The notes under the pieces were generated by a model. The model searched no databases and was not told the origin of the DNA. It worked only from the letters and a program-made list of their open reading frames with translations. From Nemertoderma westbladi (Eukaryota; Animalia; Xenacoelomorpha), in the NCBI GenBank assembly GCA_032718475.1, contig JAUCBJ010002094.1, positions 8,367-72,366 on the forward strand: 64,000 nt of DNA, given 5' to 3'. Numbering within the stretch: the first letter of the stretch is position 1; every line of letters starts with the position of its first letter. The translations under genes and the position numbers were made by a program. Of the stretch, positions 3,001 to 64,000 are shown piece by piece.

Positions 3001-4157
3001 CAAAATCATTGGTGTTTTTCTGCAATAATTTATCAAAATATCCTCTGATTTTTTTCAAAAACCATATCGATTTTCATATTTATAACTTCTATCCCACTCC
3101 ACGAGATAGAGAATCTTAAATGAACGTCAAAAGAACAGGTAACACTTACATTTATAGAAGTAATCAGCTGTTATTTGCTACGTCTTTCCGCTGGAGATGT
3201 ATGAATTTTGAATGTGTCAGAACACCCCCTATCTGTGGTTGTATGAGTGGAGAGATAAGTAGCCTATCTCCCTATTAATATTGCTGTGTTCTAGAATATT
3301 TATTATTGTTTCATCGTATTGCTAAAGTGGCTGGAGCTAAAGTTATTATGTAATGCAATAATTCACCTCAAATATCTCAGCTTTTTCATGAACATAATGA
3401 AGTATTAAAGCCATGTCAAAATCATTGGTGTTTTTCTGCAATAATTTATCAAAATATCCTCTGATTTTTTTCAAAAACCATATCGATTTTCATATTTATA
3501 ACTTCTATCCCACTCCACGAGATAGAGAATCTTAAATGAACGTCAAAAGAACAGGTAACACTTACATTTATAGAAGTAATCAGCTGTTATTTGCTACGTC
3601 TTTCTGCTGGAGATGGATGAATTTTGATTGTGTCAGAACACCCCCTATCTGTGGCTTTCTGAGTGGAGAGATAAGTAGCCTATCTCCCTATTAATATTGT
3701 TGTGTTCTAGAATATTTTTTATAGTTTCATCGTATTATTGACAAAGTGACTGGAGCTGAAGTTAACTCATAATACAATAATTCACCTCAAATATCTCAGC
3801 TATTTCATGAACATAATGAAGTATTAAAGCCATGTCAAAATCCTTGGTATTTTTCTGCAATAATTTATCAAAATATCCTCTGATTTTTTTCAAAAACCAT
3901 ATCGATTTTCTATATTTATAACTTCTATCCCACTCCACGAGATAGAGAATCTTAAATGAACGTCAAAAGAACAGGTAACACTTACATTTATAGAAGTAAT
4001 CAGCTGTTATTTGCTACGTATTTCCGCTGGAGATGAATGAATTTTGATTGTGTCAGAACACCCCCTATCTATGGTTGTATGAGTGGAGAGATAAGTATCC
4101 TATCTCCATATTGTTGTGTTCTAGAATATTTTTTATAGTTTCATCGTATTGCCAAAG
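1..4157 (+). repeat. Satellite array, ~416-bp AT-rich monomer, ~10 copies, + orientation
   Basis: GGAGCT(G/A)AAGTT recurs at 1, 418, 834, 1250 and 1666 (spacing 416-417). The array ends at ...CGTATTGCCAAAG (4157). Confidence 0.98.
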
Positions 4158-4169
4158 AAGATAACTTCG

Positions 4170-4630
4170 ATAACTAGGTCGAGAAGATAACTTTTAATAA
4201 GTGCAACAGCATTCGATTGGAATCCAATTTCTATTAATTTATCTAGGAGAATGTCGTGCTGGAGGGAGTTGAAAGCTTTAGAGAGATCTAGTACTCCAAT
4301 AGCAATATATTTTTTTTCGTTAAGTTCGCGTTTCCAAGACTCGGTTGCAAATAAAACGGCGTCTGCTGTAGAATACCCTTTTCTGAAACCAAATTGCTTA
4401 CTTTGTAGTATTTTATTGTTGTGTAGATATTTTGTAATTTGGTGATATATGACTGTTTCAATTATTTTTTCGAATGTTGATGTGACAGAAATAGGTCTAT
4501 AATTAGATGGTTCATCTCGAGACCCTTTTTTGAATACCGGAGTAATAAAGGTTGATTTTCGCCGAGAAGGAAAAGTGCTTGACGTTAGGCATAAGTTTGT
4601 GATGTGAGTTAGTGGTATGGTAATATACGG
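4170..4630 (-). pseudogene. LINE ORF2 continuation: N-terminal half of the RT domain (not in the ORF track)
   Basis: Manual translation gives PYITIPLTHITNLCLTSSTFPS...ITPVFKKGSRDEPSNYRPISVTSTFEKIIE...QFGFRKGYST...LDLSKAFNSLQHDILLDKL. It joins the 6626 part once the RTE and one TSD copy are removed. Confidence 0.9.
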
Positions 4631-6614: not shown

Positions 6615-6625
6615 GTAATATACGG

Positions 6626-8248
6626 TGCAATTAGTTTTATTAATTTTGGACTTAATATTGACGGACCAGTTGGTTTATTTGTGTTTATTTTAGATATTAT
6701 TTCAAATATTTCTAATTCGGTTACGTTCTTAAAGCTGTAACTAGAGTGAACAGTACAATGTCTTTTTATATAGCCAGTGCTTTGAAAGTTACCCAGATTT
6801 AGATATGTGTCATTAAGTAGGTTCGCCATTGGTAATATGTTATAAATAATAGAGCCTGTTGCGTGATTAATTAAGGACGATATAGTTTGCTCGGTTTTTT
6901 TATTATTATTAGTGATTTTATTTAATATTGCCCATTTGTCTTTTATTGCAGTTGCATCAATTAGTTTTGATTTTATATATTTATTCTTTAGGTTTTTATT
7001 TAGTGAGTTAAATTTATTTCGAATTGTTTTATAGTCTGCAAAGTCACTTTCACTTTTTGAATGTCTCCACCTGATTAATTTTTGCTGTTTTTCAATATTT
7101 TGGGATGATAGTTCTGAGTTCCACCATAGTGATATGTTGTGCAAGTTGCTTTTGATATTATTGCTAGATCGTATGCATTTAGTTTTAATTGGTGCATGCT
7201 TATCATATATTTCATTTAATTTATTTTCGAAGTTGTCATAAACGTAATCTACATTGCTTGTAAAATAATTATTCGTCCAGTCAATTTTACTAATTTCATT
7301 AAGAAAATCAGATTCATTGAAATGTGATAGATCGCGGAATTTAACTGTAGACTATACTGGTTTCGTGTTTTGTGGTGGTTGTGAAATTACTTGTTTGGAT
7401 TTCAGTACTATAAATTCGTGATCGGAAAATTCAGCCGGAAATGTATTGCATTCAATATAGTTATCTGTATTATTTGAGATGGTTATGAACATGTCTATAA
7501 GAGAGCTGGTTTTTGCTTTATATCTAGTGGGGTGCTCGGTATTTAGGATTTGTAAGTTGTATGTCGTTAGTATTTCCAGGAATTGCTTGTTTTTATAATA
7601 TGCAGAGTTATTTTTTGATTGGGGGTCATATGTGGATTGAATATTAACATTGAAATCACCCATTAGAAGGACATTTTGAGATGCATTGGTAGCATTCTCC
7701 ATTTCCTCGGCCAGGTCATCCCAAATATTATTAGCATGTGGTGGTATGTAGAATACACCTACTAGAGTATCGCCTATATTGATCCACAATGAGTCATATT
7801 TTTTATTTTCTTTCTTATAATTGCTTGTATTGCTTTTATTATTATTCGTTGTAGTGCTATTGTTCCCTAATTTAATATCCCCCCTTGTATTGTATTTAAT
7901 GCCACTAGGTATGTAAAATAAGACACCTCCCCCTTTCTTCTTTCTCCTATCCTGCCTTTCAATGTTGTAACCTGATAATTGTATTGATTTTGATGATATG
8001 CGGCGTTTCAACCATGTTTCCGATATACTGATTATTGTGTTAGTCGTTATTTTGGGATCAGTTTGAAGAAGGTCTTTAATATCATTGTAGTGTTTCACGT
8101 GACTTAAAGCGTTAATATGAATAAATTTTAGTTCGTTTGGATTATTGACTAGATACTGGCGTAATTGGTACATGTTGCTCCATAACGGCCCTTGAGGCAA
8201 TATTGCAGGCCCTGGATTTGGGTGAACGTCACCACATTTTAGTAACAT
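6626..8248 (-). pseudogene. LINE ORF2 5' part: 2A-like motif, APE endonuclease, linker; one in-frame TAG at 7352-7354
   Basis: ORFs 7352..8248 and 6512..7144 share a frame and read through the stop (...KPV*STVKFRD...KHAPIK...WWNSEL...LIKLIAPYIT). Confidence 0.88.
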
Positions 8249-9380
8249 AATGTTAATTGTTAGGCTAATTATAATTAGTGTGTCGATGCCGGAGGTTATA
8301 TATAAGTATGCAATGTACAGTATCAGTTTGGTTGCCTGAGTTGCATTAATATATGCTCTATGCGTTCTGTATGTTTTGTATATTTTTTTTTAAATTTGAT
8401 ATGTGAGTGATCCCTTAGAATTGTTTGAATATGTCAATGAATTCCACCACACTGCGTTATACATAATAGCAAGAGTTAAATTAAAATTGTTTGAAAGTGC
8501 TGGCCTAGTATTATTACAGGAAACAAAAAGGGATATTGAAATTATTAAAAAAGGCAAAGCTAGAAAAAATATGAAAATATATTTCTGAATGAATAACTCG
8601 AGAGATTGATATGTTGAAATCTTGCTATACAATGATATTATTAGAAGTAAAGTATAACCACTGGAACAGGTGATATTGAATTTAAGATTTTGTCTTCGTG
8701 AAGTTTTATTTTGATGTAAGCATAAGGGTAGTCTATTATACTTATTCTGTCTTTGTCGTCTGCTGAGGAGGTTCAGTCGGGGTTGGGGGGCTGTAGTTGT
8801 TTTGCTGCGCAAAAAATGACTGTCACATATTTGTTTTACCAATATGCATAAACATAGACACAACCCACTGAGCATGGCCTTGGCTATTCCATGCATATGT
8901 TAAACAATATTGTTCAAATAAAAATATATTAAATAGAAGCATTTCATTAATGAATAAATTGCACAATTTATTAGGACTAGTGAATTGCGTGTGAAAAAAT
9001 ACATTATCGTGCTCAGCCCGCTGAACTTTGACATAACTACGATATATATGATATATAGGCTTAGTAATATATTGAACATAAAAACCCTGTAAATATTATA
9101 TATATTCGATCGGAAGTTAAAACCCAAATGGGTATTACGCAAAGAATTTGCCTTCAGAGTTAAGCATAATTTGAAATACAGTAGGGCTAACGATACAAAC
9201 CAGATAAAATCAAGTAGAAGGTACTTGAATGTTATTAGTGCGAATAAAAAAAAAAGTGGTACTCATTAGTTTGGACCTAATATTTACCCCTGTATATCAT
9301 CTGGATTTATAACTTGCAGTAGGTCTATTAGAGCCGATATCATACCTCGTTTCTTTGCGAGCGGATCAATCTGTACGATC

Positions 9381-12300
9381 ATGTTCATGAAATAGCTGAG
9401 ATATTTGAGGTGAATTATTGTATTATGAGACAACTTCAGCTCTAGTCACTTTGGCAATACGATGAAACTATAAAAAATATTCTAGAACACAACAATATTA
9501 ATAGGGAGATAGGATACTTATCTCTCCACTCAGAAAGCCACAGATAGGGGGTGTTCCAACACAATCAAAATTCATCCATCTCCAGCGGAAAGACGTAGCA
9601 AATAACAGCTGATTACTTCTATAAATGTAAGTGTTACCTGTTCTTTTGACTTTCATTTAAGATTCTCTATCTCGTGGAGTGGGTTAGAAGATATAAATAA
9701 GAAAATCGATGTGGTTTTTGAAAAAAATCAGAGGATATTTTGATAAATTATTGCAGAAAAACACCAATGATTTTGACATGGCTTTAATACTTCATTATGT
9801 TCATGAAATAGCTGAGATATTTGAGGTAAATTATTGTATTATGAGTTAACTTCAGCTCTAGTCACTTTGGCAATACGATGAAACTATAAAAAATATTCTA
9901 GAACACAACAATATTAATAGGGAGATAGGATACTTATCTCTCCACTCAGAAAGCCACAGATAGGGGGTGTTCCAACGCAATCAAAATTCATCCATCCCCA
10001 GCGGAAAGACGTAGCAAATAACAGCTGATTACTTCTATAAATGTAAGTGTTACCTGTTCTTTTGACGTTCATTTAAGATTCTCTATCTCGTGGAGTGGGA
10101 TAGAAGTTATAAATATGAAAATTGATATGGTTTTTGAAAAAAATCAGAGGATATTTTGATAAATTATTGCAGAAAAATACCAAGGATTTTGACATGGATT
10201 TAATACTTCATTATGTTCATGAAATAGCTGAGATATTTGAGGTGAATTATTGCATTACATAATAACTTTAGCTCCAGCCACTTTAGCAATGCGATGAAAC
10301 TATAATAAATATTCTAGAACATAACAATATTAATAGGGAGATAGGCTACTTATCTCTCAACTCATACAACCACAGATAGGGGGTTTTCTGACACAATCAA
10401 AATTCATTCATCTTCAGCGGAAAGACGTAGCAAATAACAGCTGATTACTTCTATAAATGTAAGTGTTACCTGTTCTTTTGACTTTCATTTAAGATACTTT
10501 ATCTCGTTGAGTGGGATAGAAGTTATAAATATTAAAATCGATATGGTTTTTGAAAAAAATCAGAGGATATTTTGATAAATTATTGCAGAAAAATACCAAG
10601 GAATTTGACATGGATTTAATACTTCATTATGTTCATGAAATAGCTGAGATATTTGAGGCGAATTATTGTATTATGAGTCAACTTCAGCTCTAGTCACTTT
10701 GGCAATACGATGAAACTATAATAAATATTCTAGAACACAACAATATTAAACAGGGAGATAGGCTACTTATCTCTCCTCTCAGACAGCCACAGATAGGGGG
10801 TGTTCCAACGCAATCAAAATTCATCCATCTCCAGCGGAAAGACGTAGCAAATAACAGCTGATTACTGCTATAAATGTAAGTGTTACCTGTTCTTTTGACG
10901 TTCATTTAAGATTCTCTATCTCGTGGAGTGGGATAGAAGTTATAAATAAGAAAATCGATGTGGTTTTTGAAAAAAATCAGAGGATATTTTGATAAATTAT
11001 TGCAGAAAAACACCAATGATTTTGACATGGATTTAATACTTCATTATGTTCATGAAATAGCTGAGATATTTGAGGTGAATAATTGTATTATGAGTTAACT
11101 TCAGCTCTAGTCACTTTGGCAATACGATGAAACTATAAAAAATATTCTAGAACACAACAATATTAATAGGGAGATAGGATAATTATCTCTCCACTCAGAA
11201 AGCCACAGATAGGGGGTGTTCCAACGCAATCAAAATTCATCCATCTCCAGCGGAAATACGTAGCAAATAACAGCTGATTACTGCTATAAATGTAAGTGTT
11301 ACCTGTTCTTTTGACGTTCATTTAAGATTCTCTAGCTCGTGGAGTGGGATAGAAGTTATAAATAAGAAAATCGATGTGGTTTTTGAAAAAAATCAGAGGA
11401 TATTTTGATAAATTATTGCAGAAAAATACCAAGGATTTTGACATGGATTTAATACTTCATTATGTTCATGAAATAGCTGAGATATTTGAGGTGAATTATT
11501 GCATTACATAATAACTTTAGCTCCAGCCACTTTAGCAATGCGATGAAACTATAATAAATATTCTAGAACATAACAATATTAATAGGGAGATAGGCTACTT
11601 ATCTCTCAACTCATACAACCACAGATAGGGGGTTTTCTGACACAATCAAAATTCATTCATCTTCAGCGGAAAGACGTAGCAAATAACAGCTGATTACTTC
11701 TATAAATGTAAGTGTTACCTGTTCTTTTGACTTTCATTTAAGATACTTTATCTCGTTGAGTGGGATAGAAGTTATAAATATTAAAATCGATATGGTTTTT
11801 GAAAAAAATCAGAGGATATTTTGATAAATTATTGCAGAAAAATACCAAGGAATTTGACATGGATTTAATACTTCATTATGTTCATGAAATAGCTGAGATA
11901 TTTGAGGCGAATTATTGTATTATGAGTCAACTTCAGCTCTAGTCACTTTGGCAATACGATGAAACTATAATAAATATTCTAGAACACAACAATATTAAAC
12001 AGGGAGATAGGCTACTTATCTCTCCTCTCAGACAGCCACAGATAGGGGGTGTTCCAACGCAATCAAAATTCATCCATCTCCAGCGGAAATACGTAGCAAA
12101 TAACAGCTGATTACTGCTATAAATGTAAGTGTTACCTGTTCTTTTGACGTTCATTTAAGATTCTCTAGCTCGTGGAGTGGGATAGAAGTTATAAATAAGA
12201 AAATCGATGTGGTTTTTGAAAAAAATCAGAGGATATTTTGATAAATTATTGCAGAAAAACACCAATGATTTTGACATGGCTTTAATACTTCATTATGTTC

Positions 12301-41300: not shown

Positions 41301-44300
41301 GACATGGATTTAATACTTCATTATGTTCATGAAATAGCTGAGATATTTGAGGTGAATTATTGTATTATGAGTCAACTTCAGCTCTAGTCACTTTGGCAAT
41401 ACGATGAAACTATAATAAATATTCTAGAACACAACAATATTAACAGGGAGATAGGCTACTTATCTCTCCACTCAGACAGCCATAGATAGGGGGTGTTCCA
41501 ATGCAATCAAAATTCATCCATCTCCAGCGGAAAGACGTAGCAAATAACAGCTGATTACTGCTATAAATGTAAGTGTTACCTGTTCTTTTGACGTTCATTT
41601 AAGATTCTCTATCTCGTGGAGTGGGATAGAAGTTATAAATATGAAAATCGATATGGTTTTTGTAAAAAATCAGAGGATATTTTGATAAATTATTGCAGAA
41701 AAACACCAAGGATTTTGACATGGCTTTAATACTTCATTATGTTCATGAAATAGCTGAGATATTTGAGGTGAATTATTGTATTATGAGTCAACTTCAGCTC
41801 CAGCCACTTTAGCAATACGATGAAACTATAATAAATATTCTAGAACACAACAATATTAATAGGGAGATAGGCTACTTATTTCTCAACTCAGACAGCCACA
41901 GATAGGGGGTGTTCTGACACAATCAAAATTCATCCATCTCCAGCGGAAAGACGTAGCAAATAACAGCTGATTACTGCTATAAATGTAAGTGTTACCTGTT
42001 CTTTTGACGTTCATTTAAGATTCTCTATCTCGTGGAGTGGGATAGAAGTTATAAATATGAAAATCGATATGGTTTTTGTAAAAAATCAGAGGATATTTTG
42101 ATAAATTATTGCAGAAAAACACCAAGGATTTTGACATGGCTTTAATACTTCATTATGTTCATGAAATAGCTGAGATATTTGAGGAGAATTATTGCATTAC
42201 ATAATAACTTTAGCTCCAGCCACTTTAGCAATACGATGAAACTATAATAAATATTCTAGAACACAACAATATTAACAGGGAGATAGGCTACTTATCTCTC
42301 CTCTCAGACAGCCACAGATAGGGGGTGTTCCAACGCAATCAAAATTCATCCATCTCCAGCGGAAAGACGTAGCAAATAACAGCTGATTACTGCTATAAAT
42401 GTAAGTGTTACCTGTTCTTTTGACAAGACAAAAAATACCAAGGATTTTGACATGGATTTAATACTTCATTATGTTCATGAAATAGCTGAGATATTTGAGG
42501 TGAATTATTGTATTATGAGTCAACTTCAGCTCTAGTCACTTTGGCAATACGATGAAACTATAATAAATATTCTAGAACACAACAATATTAACAGGGAGAT
42601 AGGCTACTTATCTCTCCACTCAGACAGCCATATATAGGGGGTGTTCCAACGCAATCAAAATTCATCCATCTCCAGCGGAAAGACGTAGCAAATAACAGCT
42701 GATTACTGCTATAAATGTAAGTGTTACCTGTTCTTTTGACGTTCATTTAAGATTCTCTATCTCGTGGAGTGGGATAGAAGTTATAAATATGAAAATCGAT
42801 ATGGTTTTTGTAAAAAATCAGAGGATATTTTGATAAATTATTGCAGAAAAACATCAAGGATTTTGACATGGCTTTAATACTTCATTATGTTCATGAAATA
42901 GCTGAGATATTTGAGGTGAATTATTGCATTACATAATAACTTTAGCTCCAGCCACTTTAGCAATACGATGAAACTATAATAAATATTCTAGAACACAACA
43001 ATATTAATAGGGAGATAGGCTACTTATTTCTCAACTCAGACAGCCACAGATAGGGGGTGTTCTGACACAATCAAAATTCATCCATCTCCAGCGGAAAGAC
43101 GTAGCAAATAACAGCTGATTACTGCTATAAATGTAAGTGTTACCTGTTCTTTTGACGTTCATTTAAGATTCTCTATCTCGTGGAGTGGGATAGAAGTTAT
43201 AAATATGAAAATCGATATGGTTTTTGTAAAAAATCAGAGGATATTTTGATAAATTATTGCAGAAAAACACCAAGGATTTTGACATGGCTTTAATACTTCA
43301 TTATGTTCATGAAATAGCTGAGATATTTGAGGAGAATTATTGCATTACATAATAACTTTAGCTCCAGCCACTTTAGCAATACGATGAAACTATAATAAAT
43401 ATTCTAGAACACAACAATATTAACAGGGAGATAGGCTACTTATCTCTCCTCTCAGACAGCCACAGATAGGGGGTGTTCCAACGCAATCAAAATTCATCCA
43501 TCTCCAGCGGAAAGACGTAGCAAATAACAGCTGATTACTGCTATAAATGTAAGTGTTACCTGTTCTTTTGACGTTCATTTAAGATTCTCTATCTCGTGGA
43601 GTGGGATAGAAGTTATAAATATGAAAATTGATATGGTTTTTGAAAAAAATCAGAGGATATTTTGATAAATTATTGCAGAAAAATACCAAGGATTTTGACA
43701 TGGATTTAATACTTCATTATGTTCATGAAATAGCTGAGATATTTGAGGTGAATTATTGTATTATGAGTCAACTTCAGCTCTAGTCACTTTGGCAATACGA
43801 TGAAACTATAATAAATATTCTAGAACACAACAATATTAACAGGGAGATAGGCTACTTATCTCTCCACTCAGACAGCCATAGATAGGGGGTGTTCCAATGC
43901 AATCAAAATTCATCCATCTCCAGCGGAAAGACGTAGCAAATAACAGCTGATTACTGCTATAAATGTAAGTGTTACCTGTTCTTTTGACGTTCATTTAAGA
44001 TTCTCTATCTCGTGGAGTGGGATAGAAGTTATAAATATGAAAATCGATATGGTTTTTGTAAAAAATCAGAGGATATTTTGATAAATTATTGCAGAAAAAC
44101 ACCAAGGATTTTGACATGGCTTTAATACTTCATTATGTTCATGAAATAGCTGAGATATTTGAGGTGAATTATTGTATTATGAGTCAACTTCAGCTCCAGC
44201 CACTTTAGCAATACGATGAAACTATAATAAATATTCTAGAACACAACAATATTAATAGGGAGATAGGCTACTTATTTCTCAACTCAGACAGCCACAGATA

Positions 44301-46291
44301 GGGGGTGTTCTGACACAATCAAAATTCATCCATCTCCAGCGGAAAGACGTAGCAAATAACAGCTGATTATGCTATAAATGTAAGTGTTACCTGTTCTTTT
44401 GACGTTCATTTAAGATTCTCTATCTCGTGGAGTGGGATAGAAGTTATAAATATGAAAATCGATATGGTTTTTGTAAAAAATCAGAGGATATTTTGATAAA
44501 TTATTGCAGAAAAACACCAAGGATTTTGACATGGCTTTAATACTTCATTATGTTCATGAAATAGCTGAGATATTTGAGGAGAATTATTGCATTACATAAT
44601 AACTTTAGCTCCAGCCACTTTAGCAATACGATGAAACTATAATAAATATTCTAGAACACAACAATATTAACAGGGAGATAGGCTACTTATCTCTCCTCTC
44701 AGACAGCCACAGATAGGGGGTGTTCCAACGCAATCAAAATTCATCCATCTCCAGCGGAAAGACGTAGCAAATAACAGCTGATTACTGCTATAAATGTAAG
44801 TGTTACCTGTTCTTTTGACGTTCATTTAAGATTCTCTATCTCGTGGAGTGGGATAGAAGTTATAAATATGAAAATTGATATGGTTTTTGAAAAAAATCAG
44901 AGGATATTTTGATAAATTATTGCAGAAAAATACCAAGGATTTTGACATGGATTTAATACTTCATTATGTTCATGAAATAGCTGAGATATTTGAGGTGAAT
45001 TATTGTATTATGAGTCAACTTCAGCTCTAGTCACTTTGGCAATACGATGAAACTATAATAAATATTCTAGAACACAACAATATTAACAGGGAGATAGGCT
45101 ACTTATCTCTCCACTCAGACAGCCATAGATAGGGGGTGTTCCAACGCAATCAAAATTCATCCATCTCCAGCGGAAAGACGTAGCAAATAACAGCTGATTA
45201 CTGCTATAAATGTAAGTGTTACCTGTTCTTTTGACGTTCATTTAAGATTCTCTATCTCGTGGAGTGGGATAGAAGTTATAAATATGAAAATCGATATGGT
45301 TTTTGTAAAAAATCAGAGGATATTTTGATAAATTATTGCAGAAAAACACCAAGGATTTTGACATGGCTTTAATACTTCATTATGTTCATGAAATAGCTGA
45401 GATATTTGAGGTGAATTATTGCATTACATAATAACTTTAGCTCCAGCCCCTTTAGCAATACGATGAAACTATAATAAATATTCTAGAACACAACAATATT
45501 AATAGGGAGATAGGATACTTATCTCTCCTCTCAGACAGCCACAGATAGGGGGTGTTCCAACGCAATCAAAATTCATCCATCTCCAGCGGAAAGACGTAGC
45601 AAATAATAGCTGATTACTGCTATAAATGTAAGTGTTACCTGTTCTTTTGACGTTCATTTAAGATTCTCTATCTCGTGGAGTAGGATAGAAGTTATAAATA
45701 AGAAAATCGATGTGGTTTTTGAAAAAAATCAGAGGATATTTTGATAAATTATTGCAGAAAAACACCAATGATTTTGACATGGCTTTAATACTTCATTATG
45801 TTCATGAAATAGCTGAGATATTTGAGGTGAATTATTGTATTATGAGTTAACTTCAGCTCTAGTCACTTTGGCAATACGATGAAACTATAAAAAATATTCT
45901 AGAACACAACAATATTAATAGGGAGATAGGATACTTATCTCTCCACTCAGAAAGCCACAGATAGGGGGTGTTCCAACGCAATCAAAATTAATCCATCTCC
46001 AGCGGAAAGACGTAGCAATTAACAGCTGATTACTGCTATAAATGTAAGTGTTACCTGTTCTTTTGACGTTCATTTAAGATTCTCTATCTCGTGGAGTGGG
46101 ATAGAAGTTATAAATATGAAAATCGATATGGTTTTTGTAAAAAATCAGAGGATATTTTGATAAATTATTGCAGAAAAACACCAAGGATTTTGACATGGCT
46201 TTAATACTTCATTATGTTCATGAAATAGCTGAGATATTTGAGGTGAATTATTGCATTACATAATAACTTTAGCTCCAGCCACTTTAGCAAT
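38370..46291 (-). repeat. ~416-bp satellite, reverse orientation, with a ~2.4-kb 6-monomer higher-order repeat
   Basis: Diagnostic CCAATGCAAT variant at ~39101, ~41498 and ~43894. The 316-bp monomer junction occurs at ~40024 and ~42421 (period ~2397). Confidence 0.95.
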
Positions 46292-46400
46292 GATTATAAT
46301 AAGAAAATATATTAGCCAAATATAGTAGATATAAAACACCTTATAGCACAAAGTACAAATTGCACCACTCTAAAGGGCCCAACACCAAGCGGGGGGGAGA

Positions 46401-49400
46401 TCAATACCGATCCGATAGGTCAGATCCCCGTAAACCTGCGCCGTCCCCAAATCCAAGACCCCGCCACGGCCGACGACCACCGCGCAGACAGAGTGAGTTG
46501 GAACGGAGTAAGGAAAACTGGAGGCGCCTCCGAACTCCACCCAAGACACAGGCGAGGCCGCGTTCCCTCATGCTTTGCCGTCGCGAGACTAAGGTCTCGG
46601 CGAGGTGGCGAATAAGGATTTCGGCCTCCTTGCACCACACCCCGTCGGTGGTTCCGACTAGTGGGGTGAAGGAGATCCGACGATCCTCACACACCGCGCC
46701 ATAGTGGACCTTCTTAGCACGGACCCTCTGCTGGAGGACGGAGTCTAGAGACCGATTAACGTATGAGGGGGCGTCAGCGTTAACAATCGCAATGTCGAAA
46801 GACGCCACCCTCTGTTCGGCCCAAACTCCCCTCGCCAGGAGGTCCGCCCTTACACCACCCACCTCGCGGCCATGTCTATCCAGGTAGCCGGTGGCCAGCG
46901 TGACCTCACGCTGGACACACGACCCCCCGAACGCTGTCGCTATCAAGTCCCCGAACACCTCCCGCACCTCGTCGTGACGCCTAATAATAAGCCCACCCGA
47001 CTTACAGTTCAGGGCGTGCGAGGTCGTAAAAGGTCCCCCACACCCCTCGCAGCTCGCTGGCAGACTAGGTGGCGTCATTCCGTACCTCAGATTGAGGTTG
47101 TCGCGGAACACCTCCGGGTCCAGATCGGTGTGATCAACAATGGAGGGCTGCGCAGACAACCACCCACCTGTCTTGTGGGTGACAGTTCTCTCTACTGTAC
47201 GACGCCGTCCAGTTGGGACGCCAAGGAGAGCGGACTCCTGCCTCGCCTTGTACAAGGCGTCCTGGGAGATGCGGCTCGCAGCCAAGGCGGAGGCGAGGCA
47301 CGCGGCGTGGTCTGCTACCTGAAGTGGGCGTCCGTTCAATAAAGCGTCCACAACCCCCACAGTCCCTGCAATCGAAGCTTCCCGGGCAGGTCCCTGTCGC
47401 ATCAACGGGTCCCGGGTCCCGATGCCGCCATGACGAACCGGAAGAAGGACCAACTCCTCGTCGACCGTACCCGGAAGAGTTCCGAACACAGCCGGAATGA
47501 ACTTGGCCAACAAAGCCTCCCGGATCGGCGCCAGGTCTCTCTCCTCTGTCTCCACCACACGAAGCAGAAAATCCCACTCTGCCTGGAGACACCGGCTCAT
47601 ACCTGTATGGGCAGTCTGGGGGTATTCCACTGCCACCTCTGCCAGGCACTCAATGCTCCTGACCCAACCCCGCCACCTTCTCCGCTATAAAGTCTCTGAG
47701 ACCCTGAGCCTCCCCGACATACCCACCCAGGAAGCGCTGTCCAGAAACTATTTGGACTCCCGAGTCCCCAAACACCTCCTGCGCCCTCTGCGAGAACTCG
47801 GGTTTCACCACCAAGTAACTCTTTGTTGGCTGAGGGTTGTATCCGATACGAGGCCCACAGCGTAGCAGCTCAGTCCACCAACACCAAACATCGGGTACAG
47901 AACCAGCAGATGAAGCATCATCTGCATACCAACACTGGGTCTGACCGAGGGCAGGTGGCGAAATGGAACCGGGTTGAGCCGAAGTGGCAGAACCGGATTG
48001 AGTTGAAGTGGCAGAACCGGGTTGAGTCGGTGCGGCAGAACCGGGTTGAGTCGGTGTGGCGGAACCAGGTTGAGTTGTTGCGGCGGAACTGAGTTGAGTT
48101 GGTGTCGCGGAACCGGGTTGAGTCGATGTGGCAGAACCAGGTTGAGTCATTGTGGCAGACCCGGGTTGAGTTGGTGTGGCGAAACCGGATTGAGACGGTG
48201 TGGCAGAACCGGATTGAGTCAGAGTGGCGGAACCGGGTTGAGTCGGTGTGGCGGAACCGGGTTGAGTCGGTGTGGCGGAACCGGGTTGAGCCAAAGTGAC
48301 GGAACCTGGTTGAGACATTGTGGCGGATCCGGGTTGAGTCAATGTGGCGGAACCGGGTTGAGTCGATGTGACGGAACCGGGTTGGGTCGGTGTGGCGGAA
48401 CCGGGTTGAGTCGGTGTGGCGGAACCGGGTTGAGTCGATGTGACGAAACCGGGTTGAGTCAGTGTGGCGGAACTGGGTTGAGTCGGTGTGGCGAATCCGG
48501 GTTGACTTTGTGTGTCGGAACCGGGTTGAGTCGGTGTGGCGGAGCCGGGTTGAGTCGGTGTGGTGAAACCGGATTGAGTCGGAGTGGCGCAACCGGGTTG
48601 TGTTGCCGCCAATGGGGACTCCCGGACACCAAACTCACGCAAAGACCGTACCATGGGAAGCGTCCCACAGCCATATCCCAGCATGGCTACCGGGTCACCC
48701 TGAGTGTACCCCTCCGCACTCCACAACGGGCTGTCTGACCCTTGAAGATAAAGAGCGGCGTGTCCATTGTAAGCGTTATAGAGGTAGCGAGAGCAACGGT
48801 GCCAATACACACGCGAATTCCATAATGCCACCGGGCGGCTCAGACAGTTGAATGCATTGGAAGCATCGACTAACAACATACACTCCGTCGTCTCATGTTT
48901 GTACATCGACGTCATCGCGTGAATGGCACCTTCGATTCCTGCTTTAACCCCCGCACAAAGCTGATTAGCCCCACACTCCATAATGAAATCCGTTTTAGTG
49001 ATGTTAGTGACACAATTAGTTAGTAATCGGTACAAAACCTCACCAATTCCGATAGGCCGAACCCCGGGCTTCTTGTCGATTGCGATGAGGCGGCACGCTC
49101 TAAGGGCCCGTATCTCGCCCCATGGAACCACGGTGTTGGCCAGTCGGCGGGCCAAACCAGCGACGGCTTCACGGAGACGAGCGCTGTGGGCCTCGTAGCG
49201 GGTGAGAAGCGCACTCCATAGCTCGGCGTCTCCACCGATCGGACCTGCTCCGCCTCGCAACCACCGTGAAACCTTCAGAACCGTTTGCCCCGTAATATCA
49301 ATAGCTTCAAAGGGGGGAAGCTCGTCACACAGTTCAAACGTATCGGGCGGCACATCCATCTGGGGTGGGTGTTTGGAAGCGAGAACGTCACGTACCGTAA

Positions 49401-50280
49401 CCCCTGGCGGATGACCCTCCGCCAGATCCCCGGGATCCAACACCCCTCCACAGTCTCTGTCCGTCACCGCTCGGACCGCGGACCGATTCTGTCCGGACAG
49501 GATCTTTCTATTATACCTCCTGGCCGTGTTCACAGGAGCCGAGCCGCAGTGTTTTGCGAATTTCGCATTGCAGCGCTCAGCTTCAGCTACCAATTGAGAG
49601 AATTCCTCGCGCTCCCACATGCCGACCCTACGTAGGATTGTACGACGAATATCCGGACTCCTTACCACTTCAGGATCCCGCTGAAAGGTCGTGGCAATGA
49701 AACACAGCGGACGTTCGGAAGGGCAAACACCCTCGGTCAACCGCTGAATCTCATGGGCGACCATATCCGCAACCTTCCGTCCTACATTGCCACCAGGAAC
49801 AATATATAGGTTGCCAGACAGGCGCGTGAGGCGGGCGTGTCGGGATTCCCAGACAGGGTCGGTAGAAGACCCCGGCGAGTTGAGCCAGGGACCCCCAAAG
49901 GCCGTCTCAAGACGTTCGGCCGTCGATTGTGAGGAGGACGCCATTTCCGAGGTGGACGACAAACCGGTTGCCACGCTGGCAGATAAGGAAGGACTCGGGA
50001 TGATCCATTGAGGTATCTGGGTTATGACTGCGCTAGAAAAAGAGTCAGTGTCTGACTCTGATCCGCCATCGATTCCGGCCACTCTGTCTGAGGGAGCTAC
50101 CACCGTGTCATCCACTGCGCTACCAACTGTCCCAGAATACGAATGTGGGTTTAAACATCCTCCGGTAGACATCGACGAGCACCCGGTGCACGGACGGCCT
50201 TCACGGACGCAACGACACCGGCTGGTGGGGCAGCACGCCCGTGCTGCACACTGGCAACAACGCTGGGAACTTTGTGACAT
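46401..50280 (-). CDS. CRE-type polyprotein: CXC-like Cys cluster, RT with repeat insert, CCHC, RLE; one frameshift at ~47668-47671
   Basis: CRE-like motifs LIAIDKKPGVRPIGIGEV, LVDASNAFNCL, QGDP, WYADD, RFLGGYVG, C..C......HALNC..GG..IRRHDEV, RADL, FDIAIVN, KKVHY. Removing one G joins the 886-aa and 411-aa ORFs (KVAGWVRSIECLAEVAVEYPQ). The first ATG is at 50280. Confidence 0.88.
47965..48609 (-). repeat. 24-bp coding minisatellite, ~27 units, encoding (ATPTQPGS)n
   Basis: Plus-strand unit GGAACCGGGTTGAGTCGGTGTGGC. There are 26 full octapeptides plus one degenerate unit in the RT frame. Confidence 0.97.
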
Positions 50281-50461
50281 TCCGGAAACAGCAAAACAGC
50301 AAACCAACAAACGTGGAAGTTATCAACGATATCGAAGAAAGAAACCAATTATAAAATTTATATTACACCAATAAACTCGTAAAATCGTAAAATTTGTGGT
50401 AAAGCAATAGGCCTAACTGTACAAACCAATACTATTTAGCATATTTAACATACCAATAATA

Positions 50462-53400
50462 TTTAGCAATACGATGAAACTATAATAAATATTCTAGAAC
50501 ACAACAATATTAATAGGGAGATAGGCTACTTATTTCTCAACTCAGACAGCCACAGATAGGGGGTGTTCTGACACAATCAAAATTCATCTATCTCCAGCGG
50601 AAAGACGTAGCAAATAACAGCTGATTACTGCTAGAAATGTAAGTGTTACCTGTTCTTTTGACGTTCATTTAAGATTCTCTATCTCGTGGAGTGGGATAGA
50701 AGTTATAAATATGAAAATCGATATGGTTTTTGTAAAAAATCAGAGGATATTTTGATAAATTATTGCAGAAAAACACCAATGATTTTGACATGGCTTTAAT
50801 ACTTCATTATGTTCATGAAATAGCTGAGATATTTGAGGAGAATTATTGCATTACATAATAACTTTAGCTCCAGCCACTTTAGCAATACGATGAAACTATA
50901 ATAAATATTCTAGAACACAACAATATTAACAGGGAGATAGGCTACTTATCTCTCCTCTCAGACAGCCACAGATAGGGGGTGTTCCAACGCAATCAAAATT
51001 CATCCATCTCCAGCGGAAAGACGTAGCAAATAACAGCTGATTACTGCTATAAATGTAAGTGTTACCTGTTCTTTTGACGTTCATTTAAGATTCTCTATCT
51101 CGTGGAGTGGAATAGAAGTTATAAATATGAAAATTGATATGGTTTTTGAAAAAAATCAGAGGATATTTTGATAAATTATTGCAGAAAAATACCAAGGATT
51201 TTGACATGGATTTAATACTTCATTATGTTCATGAAATAGCTGAGATATTTGAGGTGAATTATTGTATTATGAGTCAACTTCAGCTCTAGTCACTTTGGCA
51301 ATACGATGAAACTATAATAAATATTCTAGAACACAACAATATTAACAGGGAGATAGGCTACTTATCTCTCCACTCAGACAGCCATAGATAGGGGGTGTTC
51401 CAACGCAATCAAAATTCATCCATCTCCAGCGGAAAGACATAGCAAATAACAGCTGATTACTGCTATAAATGTAAGTGTTACCTGTTCTTTTGACAAGACA
51501 AAAAATACCAATGATTTTGACATGGATTTAATACTTCATTATGTTCATGAAATAGCTGAGATATTTGAGGTGAATTATTGTATTATGAGTCAACTTCAGC
51601 TCTAGTCACTTTGGCAATACGATGAAACTATAATAAATATTCTAGAAAAACAATATTAACAGGGAGATAGGCTACTTATCTCTCCACTCAGACAGCCATA
51701 GATAGGGGGTGTTCCAACGCAATCAAAATTCATCCATCTCCAGCGGAAAGACGTAGCAAATAACAGCTGATTACTGCTATAAATGTAAGTGTTACCTGTT
51801 CTTTTGACGTTCATTTAAGATTCTCTATCTCGTGGAGTGGGATAGAAGTTATAAATAAGAAAATCGATGTGGTTTTTGAAAAAAATCAGAGGATATTTTG
51901 ATAAATTATTGCAGAAAAACACCAATGATTTTGACATGGCTTTAATACTTCATTATGTTCATGAAATAGCTGAGATATTTGAGGTGAATTATTGTATTAT
52001 GAGTTAACTTCAGCTCTAGTCACTTGGGCAATACGAAGAAACTATAAAAAATATTCTAGAACACAACAATATTAATAGGGAGATAGGATACTTATCTCTC
52101 CACTCAGAAAGCCACAGATAGGGGGTGTTCCAACGCAATCAAAATTCATCTATCTCCAGCGGAAAGACGTAGCAAATAACAGCTGATTACTGCTATAAAT
52201 GTAAGTGTTACCTGTTCTTTTGACGTTCATTTAAGATTCTCTATCTCGTGGAGTGGGATAGAAGTTATAAATATGAAAATTGATATGGTTTTTGAAAAAA
52301 ATCAGAGGATATTTTGATAAATTATTGCAGAAAAATACCAAGGATTTTGACATGGATTTAATACTTCATTATGTTCATGAAATAGCTGAGATATTTGAGG
52401 TGAATTATTGTATTATGAGTCAACTTCAGCTCTAGTCACTTTGGCAATACGATGAAACTATAATAAATATTCTAGAACACAACAATATTAACAGGGAGAT
52501 AGGCTACTTATCTCTCCACTCAGACAGCCACAGATAGGGGGTGTTCCAACGCAATCAAAATTCATCAATCTCCAGCGGAAAGACGTAGCAAATAACAGCT
52601 GATTACTGCTATAAATGTAAGTGTTACCTGTTCTTTTGACGTTCATTTAAGATTCTCTATCTCGTGGAGTGGGATAGAAGTTATAAATATGAAAATCGAT
52701 ATGGTTTTTGTAAAAAATCAGAGGATATTTTGATAAATTATTGCAGAAAAACACCAAGGATTTTGACATGGCTTTAATACTTCATTATGTTCATGAAATA
52801 GCTGAGATATTTGAGGAGAATTATTGCATTACAGAATAACTTTAGCTCCAGCCACTTTAGCAATACGATGAAACTATAATAAATATTCTAGAACACAACA
52901 ATATTAACAGGGAGATAGGCTAATAATCTCTCCTCTCAGACAGCCACAGATAGGGGGTGTTCCAACGCAATCAAAATTCATCCATCTCCAGCGGAAAGAC
53001 GTAGCAAATAACAGCTGATTACTGCTATAAATGTAAGTGTTACCTGTTCTTTTGACAAGACAAAAAATACCAAGGATTTTGACATGGATTTAATACTTCA
53101 TTATGTTCATGAAATAGCTGAGATATTTGAGGTGAATTATTGTATTATGAGTCAACTTCAGCTCTAGTCACTTTGGCAATACGATGAAACTATAATAAAT
53201 ATTCTAGAACACAACAATATTAACAGGGAGATAGGCTACTTATCTCTCCACTCAGACAGCCATATATAGGGGGTGTTCCAACGCAATCAAAATTCATCCA
53301 TCTCCAGCGGAAAGACATAGCAAATAACAGCTGATTACTGCTATAAATGTAAGTGTTACCTGTTCTTTTGACGTTCATTTAAGATTCTCTATCTCGTGGA

Positions 53401-59400: not shown

Positions 59401-59768
59401 ACAGATAGGGGGTGTTCCAACGCAATCAAAATTCATCCATCTCCAGCGGAAAGACGTAGCAAATAACAGCTGATTACTGCTATAAATGTAAGTGTTACCT
59501 GTTCTTTTGACGTTCATTTAAGATTCTCTATCTCGTGGAGTGGGATAGAAGTTATAAATAAGAAAATCGATGTGGTTTTTGAAAAAAATCAGAGGATATT
59601 TTGATAAATTATTGCAGAAAAACACCAATGATTTTGACATGGCTTTAATACTTCACTATGTTCATGAAATAGCTGAGATATTTGAGGTGAATTATTGTAT
59701 TATGAGTTAACTTCAGCTTTAGTCACTTTGGCAATACGATGAAACTATAAAAAATATTCTAGAACACA
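50462..59768 (-). repeat. ~416-bp satellite, reverse orientation (~23 copies)
   Basis: Resumes in register after the CRE element and ends at ...CTAGAACACA (59768), where the hAT element begins. Confidence 0.98.
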
Positions 59769-61061
59769 CAGGCCCGTATCGTGCGGGGGGGCTTTGGGGG
59801 CACTGCCCCCCAGACAAGTCTCATTGCCCCCCCAGACAAGTTTCACAGTAACCCAAAAAGAAGCCCAACTATAACCACTGCTTGAGTTTATGCAAATGTT
59901 CAGCAGACGGAATCGTTTTGTTCACATTCACAATGATTAATAATAATATTTGGTGGTTACGCACGCACATACCACTTCTACCCACTGACATCCCATTTGG
60001 CCCAATTATAATGGCTGCTGGCAGGTACTGGTATTGCCCCCTCCCCAACCCAGTCTAGCCTGAGCCTGTCCTGAGCCGAATTACATTGCATGGTTTTGTG
60101 TATATTAATTATGTTGTTGGCAGCCTCTGCTCTTCTTTATTGGTTGTGATTCAATTCAATTCAACTATGTGTTGCAGCTCAATATAATTATTACTATACA
60201 AGCTCAAAGGTCTCTCATCTCATTGGCTACCAGGGGCTGTTCGATATTCAATGGTGGGTGACTAATTGGTCTCTAGTTTAGAAGCCAGCTAAGTGTTGAG
60301 TGTTCTTGGGCTGTTACATTACAGTGTTATCCAAGTGTGCAACTTCCCATATTACACACAAATATTGATTACTGGATTATACCTGTTATACTGGCCATCT
60401 TACTTCATAAAAATAACTCTCACTTCAGCACTTACTGACTTAGCAGCTTAGCTTCATATTGTTTATTGCTTGCCTTGACACTTTTCTGCATTTTGTTTCT
60501 CAGATTCTGTTATTTCTATTTCTATTAATTTCTTACCGTGTACTACTACTGGACTATCAATGTCGATTTTAAATTATTTTTCACCTTTACGTGTATCTGT
60601 TGCTGAGGCTGTGCATGCGCAATCGTTATCGGTGCCATCGTTATCATCTGAGACACCTCCCCAAACAACGCTTGTTGAACAGGAAGCTGATGATTTGGGA
60701 AGTTCTAAACCTTCGCAGCCACTGCCAAACAACGGCCAGAAATTCCCATCCACACAATTTGGTAAGATTTCCCGTTCCTTTCTACCACAGTGGTATAATG
60801 GGCGACCTTGGCTTGAATACTCCGTTACTAAAGACGCGGCATTTTGTTTCTGTTGTCGGATATTCCCACAGGGTAATAAAGATATGCGAGGTGGACTTTA
60901 TGATAATGCCTTTAAGTTGGGTTATCGAAATTGGAAAAAAGCTTTGGAATGTGGAAGAGGTGAGTAGCGATAATAGTAATAACATGAGAAAGTTTGGTAA
61001 CTTTACATGGACTAATATGCTGATTTAATTAATTTATCTACAGATCTACGCTGCTGTATCA

Positions 61062-61220
61062 TAATAATTATTTATTATATTGGAAAAAAAAGTAGAATAT
61101 TTTTTCACTATTCTCGAGGCATTTTATTTACCGAGCGCCAGCGAGGTTAATAAAGGGTCGAGAGAATATTGAAAAAAAACTCAATGTTAATGTTAATTAC
61201 TCAATGTTAAATAATTTAGT
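61062..61220. repeat. Palindromic MITE-like element in the hAT intron
   Basis: Imperfect arms TTTTTTCACTATTCTCGA...TTATTTACC and GGTTAATAA...TCGAGAGAATATTGAAAAAA around the core GAGCGCCAGCGA. Confidence 0.6.
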
Positions 61221-61719
61221 GTTCTCGAATATTTATTACGTAACTAGAGACCCACTTAACAACATAAACCAATATTGGATATTGAGTTCCGTTTTGGAGA
61301 ACGCTGTGCAGACACTAAGTTACAGTAACTTCTGAGTGTCTGAATGGATTTTGCTGATGACGTGTAAACCTTTTCTACGTCAATGCTCTTTCAACACATT
61401 TAACCCTTTCAACCCTATGTCTCAACTGTTGAGACATGAGTTCCTATCGTTTCCTGTCCAGTGCCAGTCAATCCAGCCCATTCTATAGATGATTTTTGAA
61501 TACTCCGTGCATTTAGATGTGTTAATGGTGCAAAATGGCCCTCTGTCTGGCAACTGCAGGCAGTAGCCAGTCTACTTACATACTACTATAATTAGACCTT
61601 ATTTATTTTATTTATTATATATTGATTTATCTTATTTATTTATTATTCTGATTATACTGATGTATTGCATTAGTTCATTATTCAGATACAGACTGTAGAA
61701 ACATATATAATATTGGATA

Positions 61720-62055
61720 TAATATGCTTCCTTATTTTTTGACAGACAGACTGACAGACAAACAGACATACATACAGACAAAGACAGATACATCCTAGTG
61801 TTGGTCAGTCGTGGAAACTGACATCAGAAATGAAATCAGCGACCTGGAAAACCCCCATGGCGAATGTTTTTATTACATAATATGCCTCCTTATTTTTTGA
61901 CAGACAGACTGACAGACAAACAGACATACATACAGACAAAGACAGATACATCCTAGTGTTGGTCAGTCGTGGAAACTGACATCAGAAATGAAATCAGCGA
62001 CCTGGAAAACCCCCATGGCGAATTTTTTTATTACATAATATGCCTCGTTATTTTC
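61720..62055. repeat. 158-bp tandem duplication containing a (GACA)n-like microsatellite (HINE/DINE-1/pearl-like core)
   Basis: GACAGACAGACTGACAGACAAACAGACATAC... starts at 61741 and 61899. The units are near identical, with a partial third start at ~62036. Confidence 0.8.
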
Positions 62056-62064
62056 TAACCAAAG

Positions 62065-62175
62065 CAATGACCGAAATTTGTGCCATTTTGTCGACAAGCA
62101 TTCTTATTATATGTCATCTACCTGTAATGCAGCTGCAATGCAGCATGCCGATTGCCGCTCCTAGTAGTAGTAGTA
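62065..62175 (+). mobile_element. Short 3'-end fragment of a related RTE LINE
   Basis: Shares AATGCAGCTGCAATGCAGCATGCCGAT...CCTAGTAGTAGTAG with 6575-6615. Upstream it translates DRNLCHFVDKHS, against DRELWRCNFVDKPAQHS in the RTE. Confidence 0.8.
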
Positions 62176-64000
62176 TGTGAACACATACCTCTACTCCTAC
62201 TGTATTACCGTTATAAAAAATATATTTTACGGTATAAAAAATATATTTTAATGTGTTTTTTTTTATCTCTATAGGCTTTGCTCAACATGAGTGCTCTGTG
62301 GAGCATGTTGGTGCAATGGCTGCGTGGTCAGAGCGACAGTTGCGTGAAAAGAGCAACCTATCAGTGAGTACGTTAGTCAATGACGCCCAGTTGGAGAAGA
62401 ATCGGTACTACCTTTCTTCCATTATAGACATTGTGCGATTTCTTACGGTAAATGGTCTCCCCTTGCGCGGTGATAAGGAAGATAATATAAGACAATGTAT
62501 AACTACATTAGACTGCGACACTGGAGAATTGGACAGCAATGGATTGCCATGTGGTTTATTCCTCCGTCTTTTTGAATTCACTATGAGAAAAGATGATAAG
62601 TTGAGAGATATATACAAGACAATCCCCAACGTGGCCACATACACTTCGCCAGGAATTCAAAATGAGGTTATTAATGTAATGGCAAACCTGGTTAAGGAAC
62701 ATATAGTAGATATGGTAAAGACAGCAGATGTGCCATACTTTACTTTGAAAGTCGATGGAACACGTGACCCAACTGGAATTGAGGATTTGAGTATTGTTGT
62801 GCGTTTCGTTAAGGTTGGCGTGGTTGAGGAGCACCTCCTGGAAATTGCAAAGGTTGTCGAACTTGATGCCAAGTCGTTAACTAATGCCATTATGGAGGAA
62901 CTGAAGTCATCTGGTTTAGATCCGAGTAATATTATCAGTCAGTGTTACGGTGGGGCTGCTGTAATGTCTGGTTAGCATGGAGGGGTGCAGGCATTACTGC
63001 AGGATGCTGTAGGTAAAAGCATTCCATATGTACACTGCTATAATCACCAATTGCACTTGGTGGTTGTGCATGCACTGCAAGAGAATCTATGGGCTAGAAA
63101 TTACTTTGAACTTTGTTCAGTCTTGTATAACTTCACTAGGAAGCCCAAGGTCGCTGCTCTGTATGATGGTGCTAAACTCCATCGCCTTCTCGAACAGAGG
63201 TGGTCTGGACATTTAAAGACAACTAAGACTATATTAGACAATTTTGAAGAGATAACCAATCTTCTCAAATCCTGTGCCGACTGCTCAGAAACTGATATTT
63301 CTGTGGAGGCTACTGGTCTACTAATGAAGATCAGAGAATCTAAGTTCATGTTCATGTCTAAACTGTGCTTCAAGATTCTTAGCTTATTGAAACCAGCCAA
63401 TGATGCTCTACAGTCAAAGTCAATGGATTTGCTCTCAGGTTCCGAAGTTGTTCTAGAATGCCTGAAATGCATTAAGGATCTACGCAACAGTAAATTCTTC
63501 AGCGAGATTTATGTCCCAACCAATGACGATGATTGCAGATCAAGAAAAAGGCGCGTCCATGTAACTAGCACAAGGTTAGACATTTTTGTAATTGTTGATT
63601 ACGTTCCACATGGTGGACCTTTGAATCATTTATAGTCATATTTCTGATTTGAATTTTCACAATTTTATTAATAATAAATTTAAAAATGTTAAGGCATTAA
63701 CGGGAATGTGGGTTAATTTTATAAAAATGATTTTTAAGGAACACATCTATATTTGTGAGTGCGAATCTGAGGAGGGTCACCTAAATAAACCCTAGTGAAG
63801 CCCACCTCTAGTAATATTACAAAACATGAGGTTAATAATTTAAATGTAAAATGTATTTGTAGATTATCGGACTCTGTTGCGTATGAGACTCTAGGATCCG
63901 GATCCAGACCAAGTTCGCATTGTTCCCGTGATGTCTCTGCGAAGGGATAATTTCAAGCCAGACCTATAGTGAAATTCTAGACCTCATTATTACGGAGATG

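What the first reader, a model, noticed from the sequence alone, without database searches (positions are those of the whole stretch)
47965..48609. ~215-aa octapeptide repeat inserted in frame inside the RT palm of a CRE retrotransposon
Seen: about 27 diverged 24-bp units encoding (ATPTQPGS)n lie between QGDP (48691-48702) and the catalytic YADD (47917-47928), ending ~12 residues before YADD, with no stop or indel. Known: this loop is normally a few tens of residues (about 30 in the RTE in this same window). Inference: the units differ at many positions, yet the element sits with a clean TSD in a recently duplicated satellite block. So the array is probably older than this insertion and was carried through retrotransposition. 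That would mean an RT tolerating or using a long T/P/Q/S low-complexity loop (spacer, phospho-acceptor or condensate module), or an RNA mobilised in trans. Caveat: two other frames of the repeat are also open, so openness alone is not evidence of selection.
Basis: partly seen in the sequence, partly recalled or inferred. Interest (0 to 1): 0.85.

Follow-up and report, generated by a model that had tools for sequence, protein, structure and literature searches.

The report
Stretchable loop in CRE reverse transcriptase
A jumping gene carries about 27 copies of an eight-amino-acid repeat, in frame, between two catalytic motifs of its copying enzyme; relatives have repeatedly lengthened the same loop (one with a whole RNase H domain), so the loop is likely a tolerant surface site and the repeat likely a harmless passenger, although enzyme activity is untested and this copy is frameshifted.

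Summary
The array is real: about 27 units of 24 bp (82% alike) make the QGDP-to-YADD stretch 254 residues, against 25-30 in 111 of 114 measurable first hits. Contigs of another sample lack that base and run into the array, so an in-frame, array-bearing allele likely exists. The site is the RT4-RT5 ('4a') loop. It is long in 15 of 342 CRE-like proteins. The window's nearest relatives all have long but unrelated loops, several in complete ORFs. Long loops arose several times (one clade rejected, p-AU 1e-8), and one lineage has a full RNase H there. AlphaFold folds the RT confidently around a low-confidence insert. The units show no significant protein-level selection. Best reading: a tolerated, probably disordered passenger in an insertion-permissive loop, carried through retrotransposition. 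A specific function is not supported. 4a insertions are described for group II intron RTs and Prp8; ten paper searches found none for LINEs. New variant of a known kind.

The parts
46292..50461 (-). CRE-clade RLE non-LTR retrotransposon, 4170 bp, no poly(A) tail seen; only copy in the window
   Evidence: (self-BLAST)
50462..50470 (-). 5' copy of 9-bp target-site duplication
46283..46291 (-). 3' copy of 9-bp target-site duplication
47650..50280 (-). ORF part 1 (876 aa from ATG): Cys-rich N-terminus, RT with the array, ends at a premature stop
50149..50259 (-). N-terminal Cys-rich motif shared with P0001 and P0002
48850..48867 (-). RT motif 3/A (D-x-x-N-A-F, CRE type)
48691..48702 (-). RT motif 4/B' QGDP, followed by a predicted helix that ends just before the array
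47965..48612 (-). Array of about 27 x 24-bp units, (ATPTQPGS)n, in the RT4-RT5 (4a) loop; predicted disordered
47917..47928 (-). RT motif 5/C YADD, intact
47660..47670 (-). +1 frameshift (extra base near 47666), present in the X1 contig, absent from X2 and X3 contigs
46401..47665 (-). ORF part 2: thumb/linker, zinc knuckle, RLE
46794..47051 (-). C-x2-C-x7-H-x3-C-x8-RHD-x21-E-x18-RAD-x15-D knuckle and restriction-like endonuclease core; K..Y motif at 46715
   Evidence: compared with the pattern in PMC12857005 section 16
42431..46291 (.). 416-bp satellite array, host of the insertion; it continues from 50462

Best explanation
This is a CRE-clade retrotransposon whose RT carries a 24-bp tandem array in frame in the loop between motifs 4 and 5, a loop predicted to lie on the surface and likely to accept almost any in-frame sequence, so the array is most likely a tolerated, disordered passenger. 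Shown: the array, intact catalytic motifs on both sides, long unrelated loops at the same site in relatives with complete ORFs, and several separate origins of long loops. Inferred: the loop was already long and P/S/T-rich in this lineage; one 24-bp unit then expanded by slippage or unequal exchange; changes in multiples of three survive because frameshifts would cut off YADD and the endonuclease; in-frame copies make a protein of about 1292 aa that would copy its own RNA, array included, by target-primed reverse transcription. The window copy gained (or was inserted with) a 1-base frameshift and is non-autonomous.
For: Nearest relatives by RT tree all have long loops: P0001 113, P0002 98, P0214/L001 110, P0020 59, P0043 163 residues QGDP-to-YADD. 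P0001, P0002, P0214 and P0043 are single ORFs from the N-terminus through the RLE with motifs A and C and the knuckle present. Within one family the loop length differs (59, 98, 110, 115) with shared ends. 15 of 342 measurable proteins have a loop of 30 or more residues against 318 at 16 or fewer on the profile measure. Nine long-loop rows are rejected as one clade (p-AU 1.1e-8). P0286/P0358 hold an RNase H fold in the same loop (PF13456, E 1e-10). AlphaFold with 150 sequences gives pLDDT mostly above 90 on both flanks and below 50 over most of residues 310-525; the model matches R2Tg at Z 25.9, rmsd 3.1, 335 aligned. X2 and X3 contigs span 47666 without the extra base and continue into the array. 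Of 11 displayed substitutions between the window and the near copies, 7 are silent and none is a stop (expected silent fraction 0.25-0.30, p 0.008-0.02). The array itself shows no significant selection.
Against: No activity or expression data. The window copy is frameshifted. X2 and X3 are one sample by record, their contigs are unphased pieces, and cover is thin inside the array, so a whole intact copy was not seen. The 11 substitutions are only the rows that the tool displayed (204 further rows hidden). The array is about twice as long as any other low-complexity loop found, so tolerance at this length is extrapolated. Low pLDDT over the insert is expected from lack of alignment depth, and the flanks' fold is driven by short-loop relatives. 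Support for the window's group as one clade is unstable: SH-aLRT 91, 94 without P0043, 36/86. The survey is biased upward because later searches were seeded with long-loop sequences.
Confidence: 0.65

Rival explanations
1. The array inactivates or cripples the RT, and array-bearing RNAs are moved in trans by another CRE family of the same genome, or the array grew after the last active round.
For: The window copy is frameshifted yet has a perfect TSD in satellite blocks 97-99% alike. Other CRE families are present in the same runs at 80-90% local identity. A second, about 5% diverged set of contigs carries several indels.
Against: An in-frame allele with mostly silent differences exists in X2/X3. 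No array-less sibling contig joins across the array. Units are 82% alike while near copies differ by 0-7 bases per 200-700 bp of flank, so the array is older than these copies. Complete ORFs with 98-286-residue loops exist.
Confidence: 0.16
2. The long loop has a job, for example a disordered spacer, phosphorylation or glycosylation platform, or a protein-binding surface, kept by selection in this lineage.
For: All five nearest relatives keep a long, hydrophobic-poor loop; none was seen to revert to the short form. The QPG part of the unit is nearly invariant while other positions vary. A folded enzyme (RNase H) can sit at this site.
Against: Loops do not align and differ in charge from -21 to +3 and in length from 38 to 233. 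No significant silent excess among units (p=0.28). 318 of 342 relatives do without it.
Confidence: 0.14
3. The array is an intron removed from the RNA, which restores a normal RT.
For: One GT-AG pair (48627 with 47940) would leave exactly 25 residues between QGDP and YADD.
Against: That donor matches 3 of 9 consensus positions, below the median of GT sites in the element; similar in-frame pairs occur in 3 of 4 other loci tested. The two better donors give a loop of 15-17 residues or no in-frame acceptor. A spliced RNA would leave array-less DNA copies; no such joint is listed.
Confidence: 0.04

Closest known systems
CRE clade non-LTR retrotransposons, nearest by eye Cre-1_HM of Hydra (RT row in supplementary file 6 of PMC5678591); also SLACS, CRE1, CRE2, MoTeR/FoTeR
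   Same: Single ORF with RT then CCHC knuckle and RLE; D-x-x-N-A-F-N motif A, RPIGIGEV, TQGDP, W-x-ADD; RAD-type endonuclease core as in MoTeR/FoTeR; TSD.
   Different: The Cre-1_HM, Cre-1_BM, SLACS, CRE1 and CRE2 rows that I saw have a loop of about 24-28 residues (counted by eye); here it is 254. Trypanosomatid CREs have internal repeat regions (PMC12278014 legend) whose position relative to the RT I did not check. No spliced-leader or other Rfam target was found at the insertion site.
'4a' insertion of group II intron RTs (LtrA) and Prp8
   Same: Same position, between RT4 and RT5. PMC5678591 lists 4a for group II intron RTs and Prp8, and its LtrA row shows a long stretch after the motif-4 helix. 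That LtrA is an active RT is recalled.
   Different: That paper lists only 0, 2a, 3a and 6a for LINEs. The LtrA stretch is non-repetitive (helical by recall); here the insert is a tandem, low-complexity array.
R2 (R2Tg 9dou/9nl3, R2Bm 8gh6) and L1 ORF2p structures
   Same: Closest solved folds, Z 22-26.
   Different: About 30 residues between QGDP and the catalytic motif in R2Tg.
RNase H-bearing non-LTR elements (oomycete Utopia, plant L1, I group)
   Same: The relative P0286 has an RNase H with Arg at the His position, as described for archaeal-like RNase H (PMC4640811 passages).
   Different: Utopia's RNase H lies upstream of the RT; P0286's lies inside the RT, in the 4a loop. The window element has no RNase H.

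Membership tests
CRE clade | Single ORF, RT followed by CCHC knuckle and PD-(D/E)xK-type RLE | tested here: met
   The ORF is split by one base in this copy; spacings x8 and x15 fall one residue outside the published SLACS/CRE ranges.
CRE clade | RT groups with named CRE elements in a phylogeny | tested here: inconclusive
   No named CRE was in my trees. Motif-by-motif likeness to Cre-1_HM by eye; ESM Atlas places P0001 near a cluster auto-named SLACS protein, score 0.95, 204 of 256 features.
CRE clade | Target-site duplication on insertion (PMC3636483 passage) | tested here: met
   9-bp TSD
CRE clade (trypanosomatid members) | Insertion at a fixed site in spliced-leader RNA genes | tested here: inconclusive
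   The site is a 416-bp satellite with no Rfam match; only one insertion site is known here, and an undescribed SL gene would not be in Rfam.
R2 clade | 28S/18S rDNA target and R2-type motif A (D-x-x-K-A-F-D) | tested here: not met
   Satellite target without rRNA match; motif is DASNAFN versus KAFD in R2 rows.
Active autonomous retrotransposon | Intact ORF, transcription, TPRT activity | not testable with these tools
   Window copy frameshifted; in-frame allele inferred from unphased contigs; no assay possible.
Spliceosomal intron | Consensus donor and acceptor in frame; spliced product | tested here: inconclusive
   Only a weak donor fits; no RNA run was available.

The most novel reading that the evidence does not exclude
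The 4a loop of CRE-clade RTs is a plug-in site in the palm of active enzymes: lineages have filled it with acidic or Pro/Ser/Thr-rich disordered tails, a 27-unit octapeptide array and a complete RNase H, and these modules are selected (the array as an interaction or modification platform, the RNase H for removing template RNA during TPRT).
Probability: 0.2. Interest if true: 0.75.

Novelty: new variant of a known kind. Interest (0 to 1): 0.5.

Why it matters
If the in-frame allele is active, a LINE RT palm tolerates more than 200 extra residues 12 residues from YADD. That marks a natural internal fusion site for RLE retrotransposon proteins now used for gene insertion, and adds a 4a insertion to the LINE list, where it was not counted. 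It also matters for annotation: Pfam RVT_1 misses the window protein and scores below its cut-off for all 8 long-loop relatives scanned, so such families are easy to overlook.

Tried and rejected
No whole genome is held for this window, so copies could not be counted. No RNA holder listed; this says nothing on expression. Run X5 gave almost no cover over 46930-49400; a hole proves nothing. The first AlphaFold job (5 sequences) failed, mean pLDDT 40. A search for shorter proteins found no close sibling of this family; best identity 68% over a short stretch. The 80 metagenome loci added one long-loop member (L001) and a separate set with 43-46-residue loops. ESM Atlas gave no hit at 0.9 or more for the RNase H-in-RT region of P0286. 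The unit has no source elsewhere in the window (best match 9 of 24 mismatches). Rfam over 45000-51500 gave one chance-level match. The careful mixture-model tree did not finish (quick tree used). P0272, P0286, P0329 and P0240 were left out of the AU test for long branches. Assembly artefact rejected (junctions in contigs of two studies). Earlier-findings look-ups by sequence, words and relatives gave nothing on this element.

Full report
Observation. The minus strand of 46292-50461 is a GC-rich (57%) element between 9-bp duplications, set in a 416-bp satellite. TRF reports 26.5 units of 24 bp at 47965-48600. In register there are 27 units, 23 distinct, 82% alike on average. Two corrections: the loop of the window's RTE is 48 residues, and the element has a +1 frameshift near 47666, after the RT core, so the RT frame stops at 47650 while the thumb, knuckle and endonuclease lie in 46401-47684.

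Identity. The C-terminal part reads C-x2-C-x7-H-x3-C-x8-RHD-x21-E-x18-RAD-x15-D with a K..Y motif, close to the SLACS/CRE and MoTeR patterns in PMC12857005 (section 16 read). The RT resembles the Cre-1_HM row of supplementary file 6 of PMC5678591 motif by motif (passages seen, compared by eye). ESM Atlas puts the nearest complete relative beside a cluster auto-named SLACS protein (0.95). I file it as CRE clade; a tree with named CREs was not run.

Is the array private to this copy? No genome is held, so I laid contigs of 4 of the 6 listed runs. X1 matches the window, frameshift included. X2 and X3 (one sample by record, a different study from X1) each have a contig that lacks the extra base and runs into the array (47392-48066; 47432-48041), and another that covers the upstream junction. 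Their displayed differences are 7 silent, 4 replacement and no stop, against 25-30% silent expected; these are only the rows displayed, 204 were hidden. An in-frame ORF would be 1292 aa. No joint skipping the array is listed at 80% likeness. Variant contigs inside the array differ at 6-9 of 115-175 bases; they may be other copies or shifted units. One X3 contig leaves the element at 50336 into other sequence, hinting at a copy in another context. All pieces are unphased, and depth is no copy number. Loose ends of other CRE families in these runs translate to DVHPRPTHP after the motif-4 helix and EPGSPTVSQK before QCWYADD, a hint that sibling families also have Pro/Ser/Thr loops.

Relatives. 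In the first search (best 120 of 539 hits), 114 gave both motifs by pattern: 111 had 25-30 residues and three had 59, 98 and 113; a looser pattern added P0043 (163) and P0118 (42). The two best-scoring hits were long-loop ones. L001, one of 80 metagenome loci, is a complete 1122-codon frame with a 110-residue loop. After profile searches, 342 of 358 proteins could be measured with half-profiles: 318 have 16 or fewer loop residues, 9 have 17-29 and 15 have 30 or more, including the window (237 on this measure) and one near-duplicate pair. These later searches were seeded with long-loop rows, so 15 of 342 overstates the frequency. The long loops do not align and range from strongly acidic to Pro-rich. 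In one family, partly labelled Vitrella brassicaformis by its sources, lengths of 59, 98, 110 and 115 share their ends. P0286 and P0358 carry 269 residues there, including an RNase H fold with its acidic motifs (PF13456, E 1e-10).

Trees, on RT columns with the loop dropped by occupancy. The window groups with P0001, P0002, P0020 and P0043 at SH-aLRT 91 among 120 rows; at 81 in FastTree on 313 of 342 rows; at 94 without P0043 among 48 rows; and at only 36/86 among 30 rows. So the nearest rows by path are consistently long-loop, but a single clade is neither shown nor rejected. All nine long-loop rows in the 30-row set are rejected as one clade (p-AU 1.1e-8), with four long-branch rows left out. 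Long loops therefore arose several times at this site.

Structure. With 5 sequences AlphaFold failed. With 150, ORF residues 250-876 gave mean pLDDT 72.9, mostly above 90 on both flanks and below 50 over most of the insert, which leaves after the motif-4 helix and returns at the strand before YADD. The model matches R2Tg (Z 25.9, rmsd 3.1, 335 aligned) and L1 ORF2p (Z 25.1) across the insert. The insert had no alignment depth, so this shows compatibility, not disorder or activity; composition (about 89% P, S, T, A, G, Q) points the same way.

Selection on the array. Against the consensus there are 24 silent and 38 replacement differences (pN/pS about 0.7). Distinct variants show no significant silent excess (p=0.28), and only one possible single change makes a stop.

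Mechanism. Most likely (0.65) the 4a loop is a permissive surface linker, already long in this lineage, in which one 24-bp unit expanded; in-frame copies would still fold, and would copy their own RNA with the array. Rivals: crippled RT moved in trans (0.16), a selected function (0.14), an intron (0.04; one in-frame GT-AG pair leaves 25 residues but has a 3-of-9 donor).

Print. PMC5678591 (passages; supplement file 6 passages) says LINE RTs have insertions 0, 2a, 3a and 6a, and gives 4a for Prp8 and group II introns. PMC4640811 (passages) places Utopia's RNase H upstream of the RT. Also seen as passages only: PMC12278014, PMC3636483, PMC12222951, PMC5348765. Ten full-text searches found no description of long 4a loops in CRE or other LINE RTs; subscription journals, Repbase entries and preprint supplements were not searchable and may hold one. 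Unreviewed notes of this scan mention a Tudor-like domain between two catalytic motifs of a HERO-like RT; I did not test it.

Verdict. Function and activity are unproven. New variant of a known kind; interest 0.5.

Noticed in passing
P0286 / P0358 (1401 aa), residues about 600-870: CRE-like protein with a complete RNase H fold (acidic motifs present, Arg at the His position) inside the RT4-RT5 loop, with YADD-type motif and RLE intact. Deserves its own follow-up.
   Followed up: partly
window 46593-46930: The RLE-coding part draws contigs at 10-50 times the depth of the rest of the element, with shared loose ends before 46593: probably an abundant related family or non-autonomous derivative.
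   Followed up: no
window 50149-50259: N-terminal Cys-rich motif (about nine Cys) conserved in P0001, P0002, P0034, P0085 and L001; no Pfam match. A CXC-like metal-binding module by recall.
   Followed up: no
window 4157-9381: An RTE element (4624-6573, plus strand) nested in an APE-RT element of the opposite strand, both inside the satellite.
   Followed up: no
window 1-59768: 416-bp satellite with recurring 316-bp shortened units and multi-unit blocks 97-99% alike; extremely deep in runs X1-X3 but barely covered in X5, which has the same species label.
   Followed up: partly
window 59768-64000: Broken DNA-transposon-like frames (hAT-like by recall, not tested) at 60479-63635.
   Followed up: no
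L004, L011, L014, L018, L031: A separate set of CRE-like loci with a 43-residue QGDP-to-YADD stretch.
   Followed up: no
P0043 residues about 880-930: A second long, charged insertion inside the RLE between the E motif and RAD, like the long MoTeR spacer.
   Followed up: no
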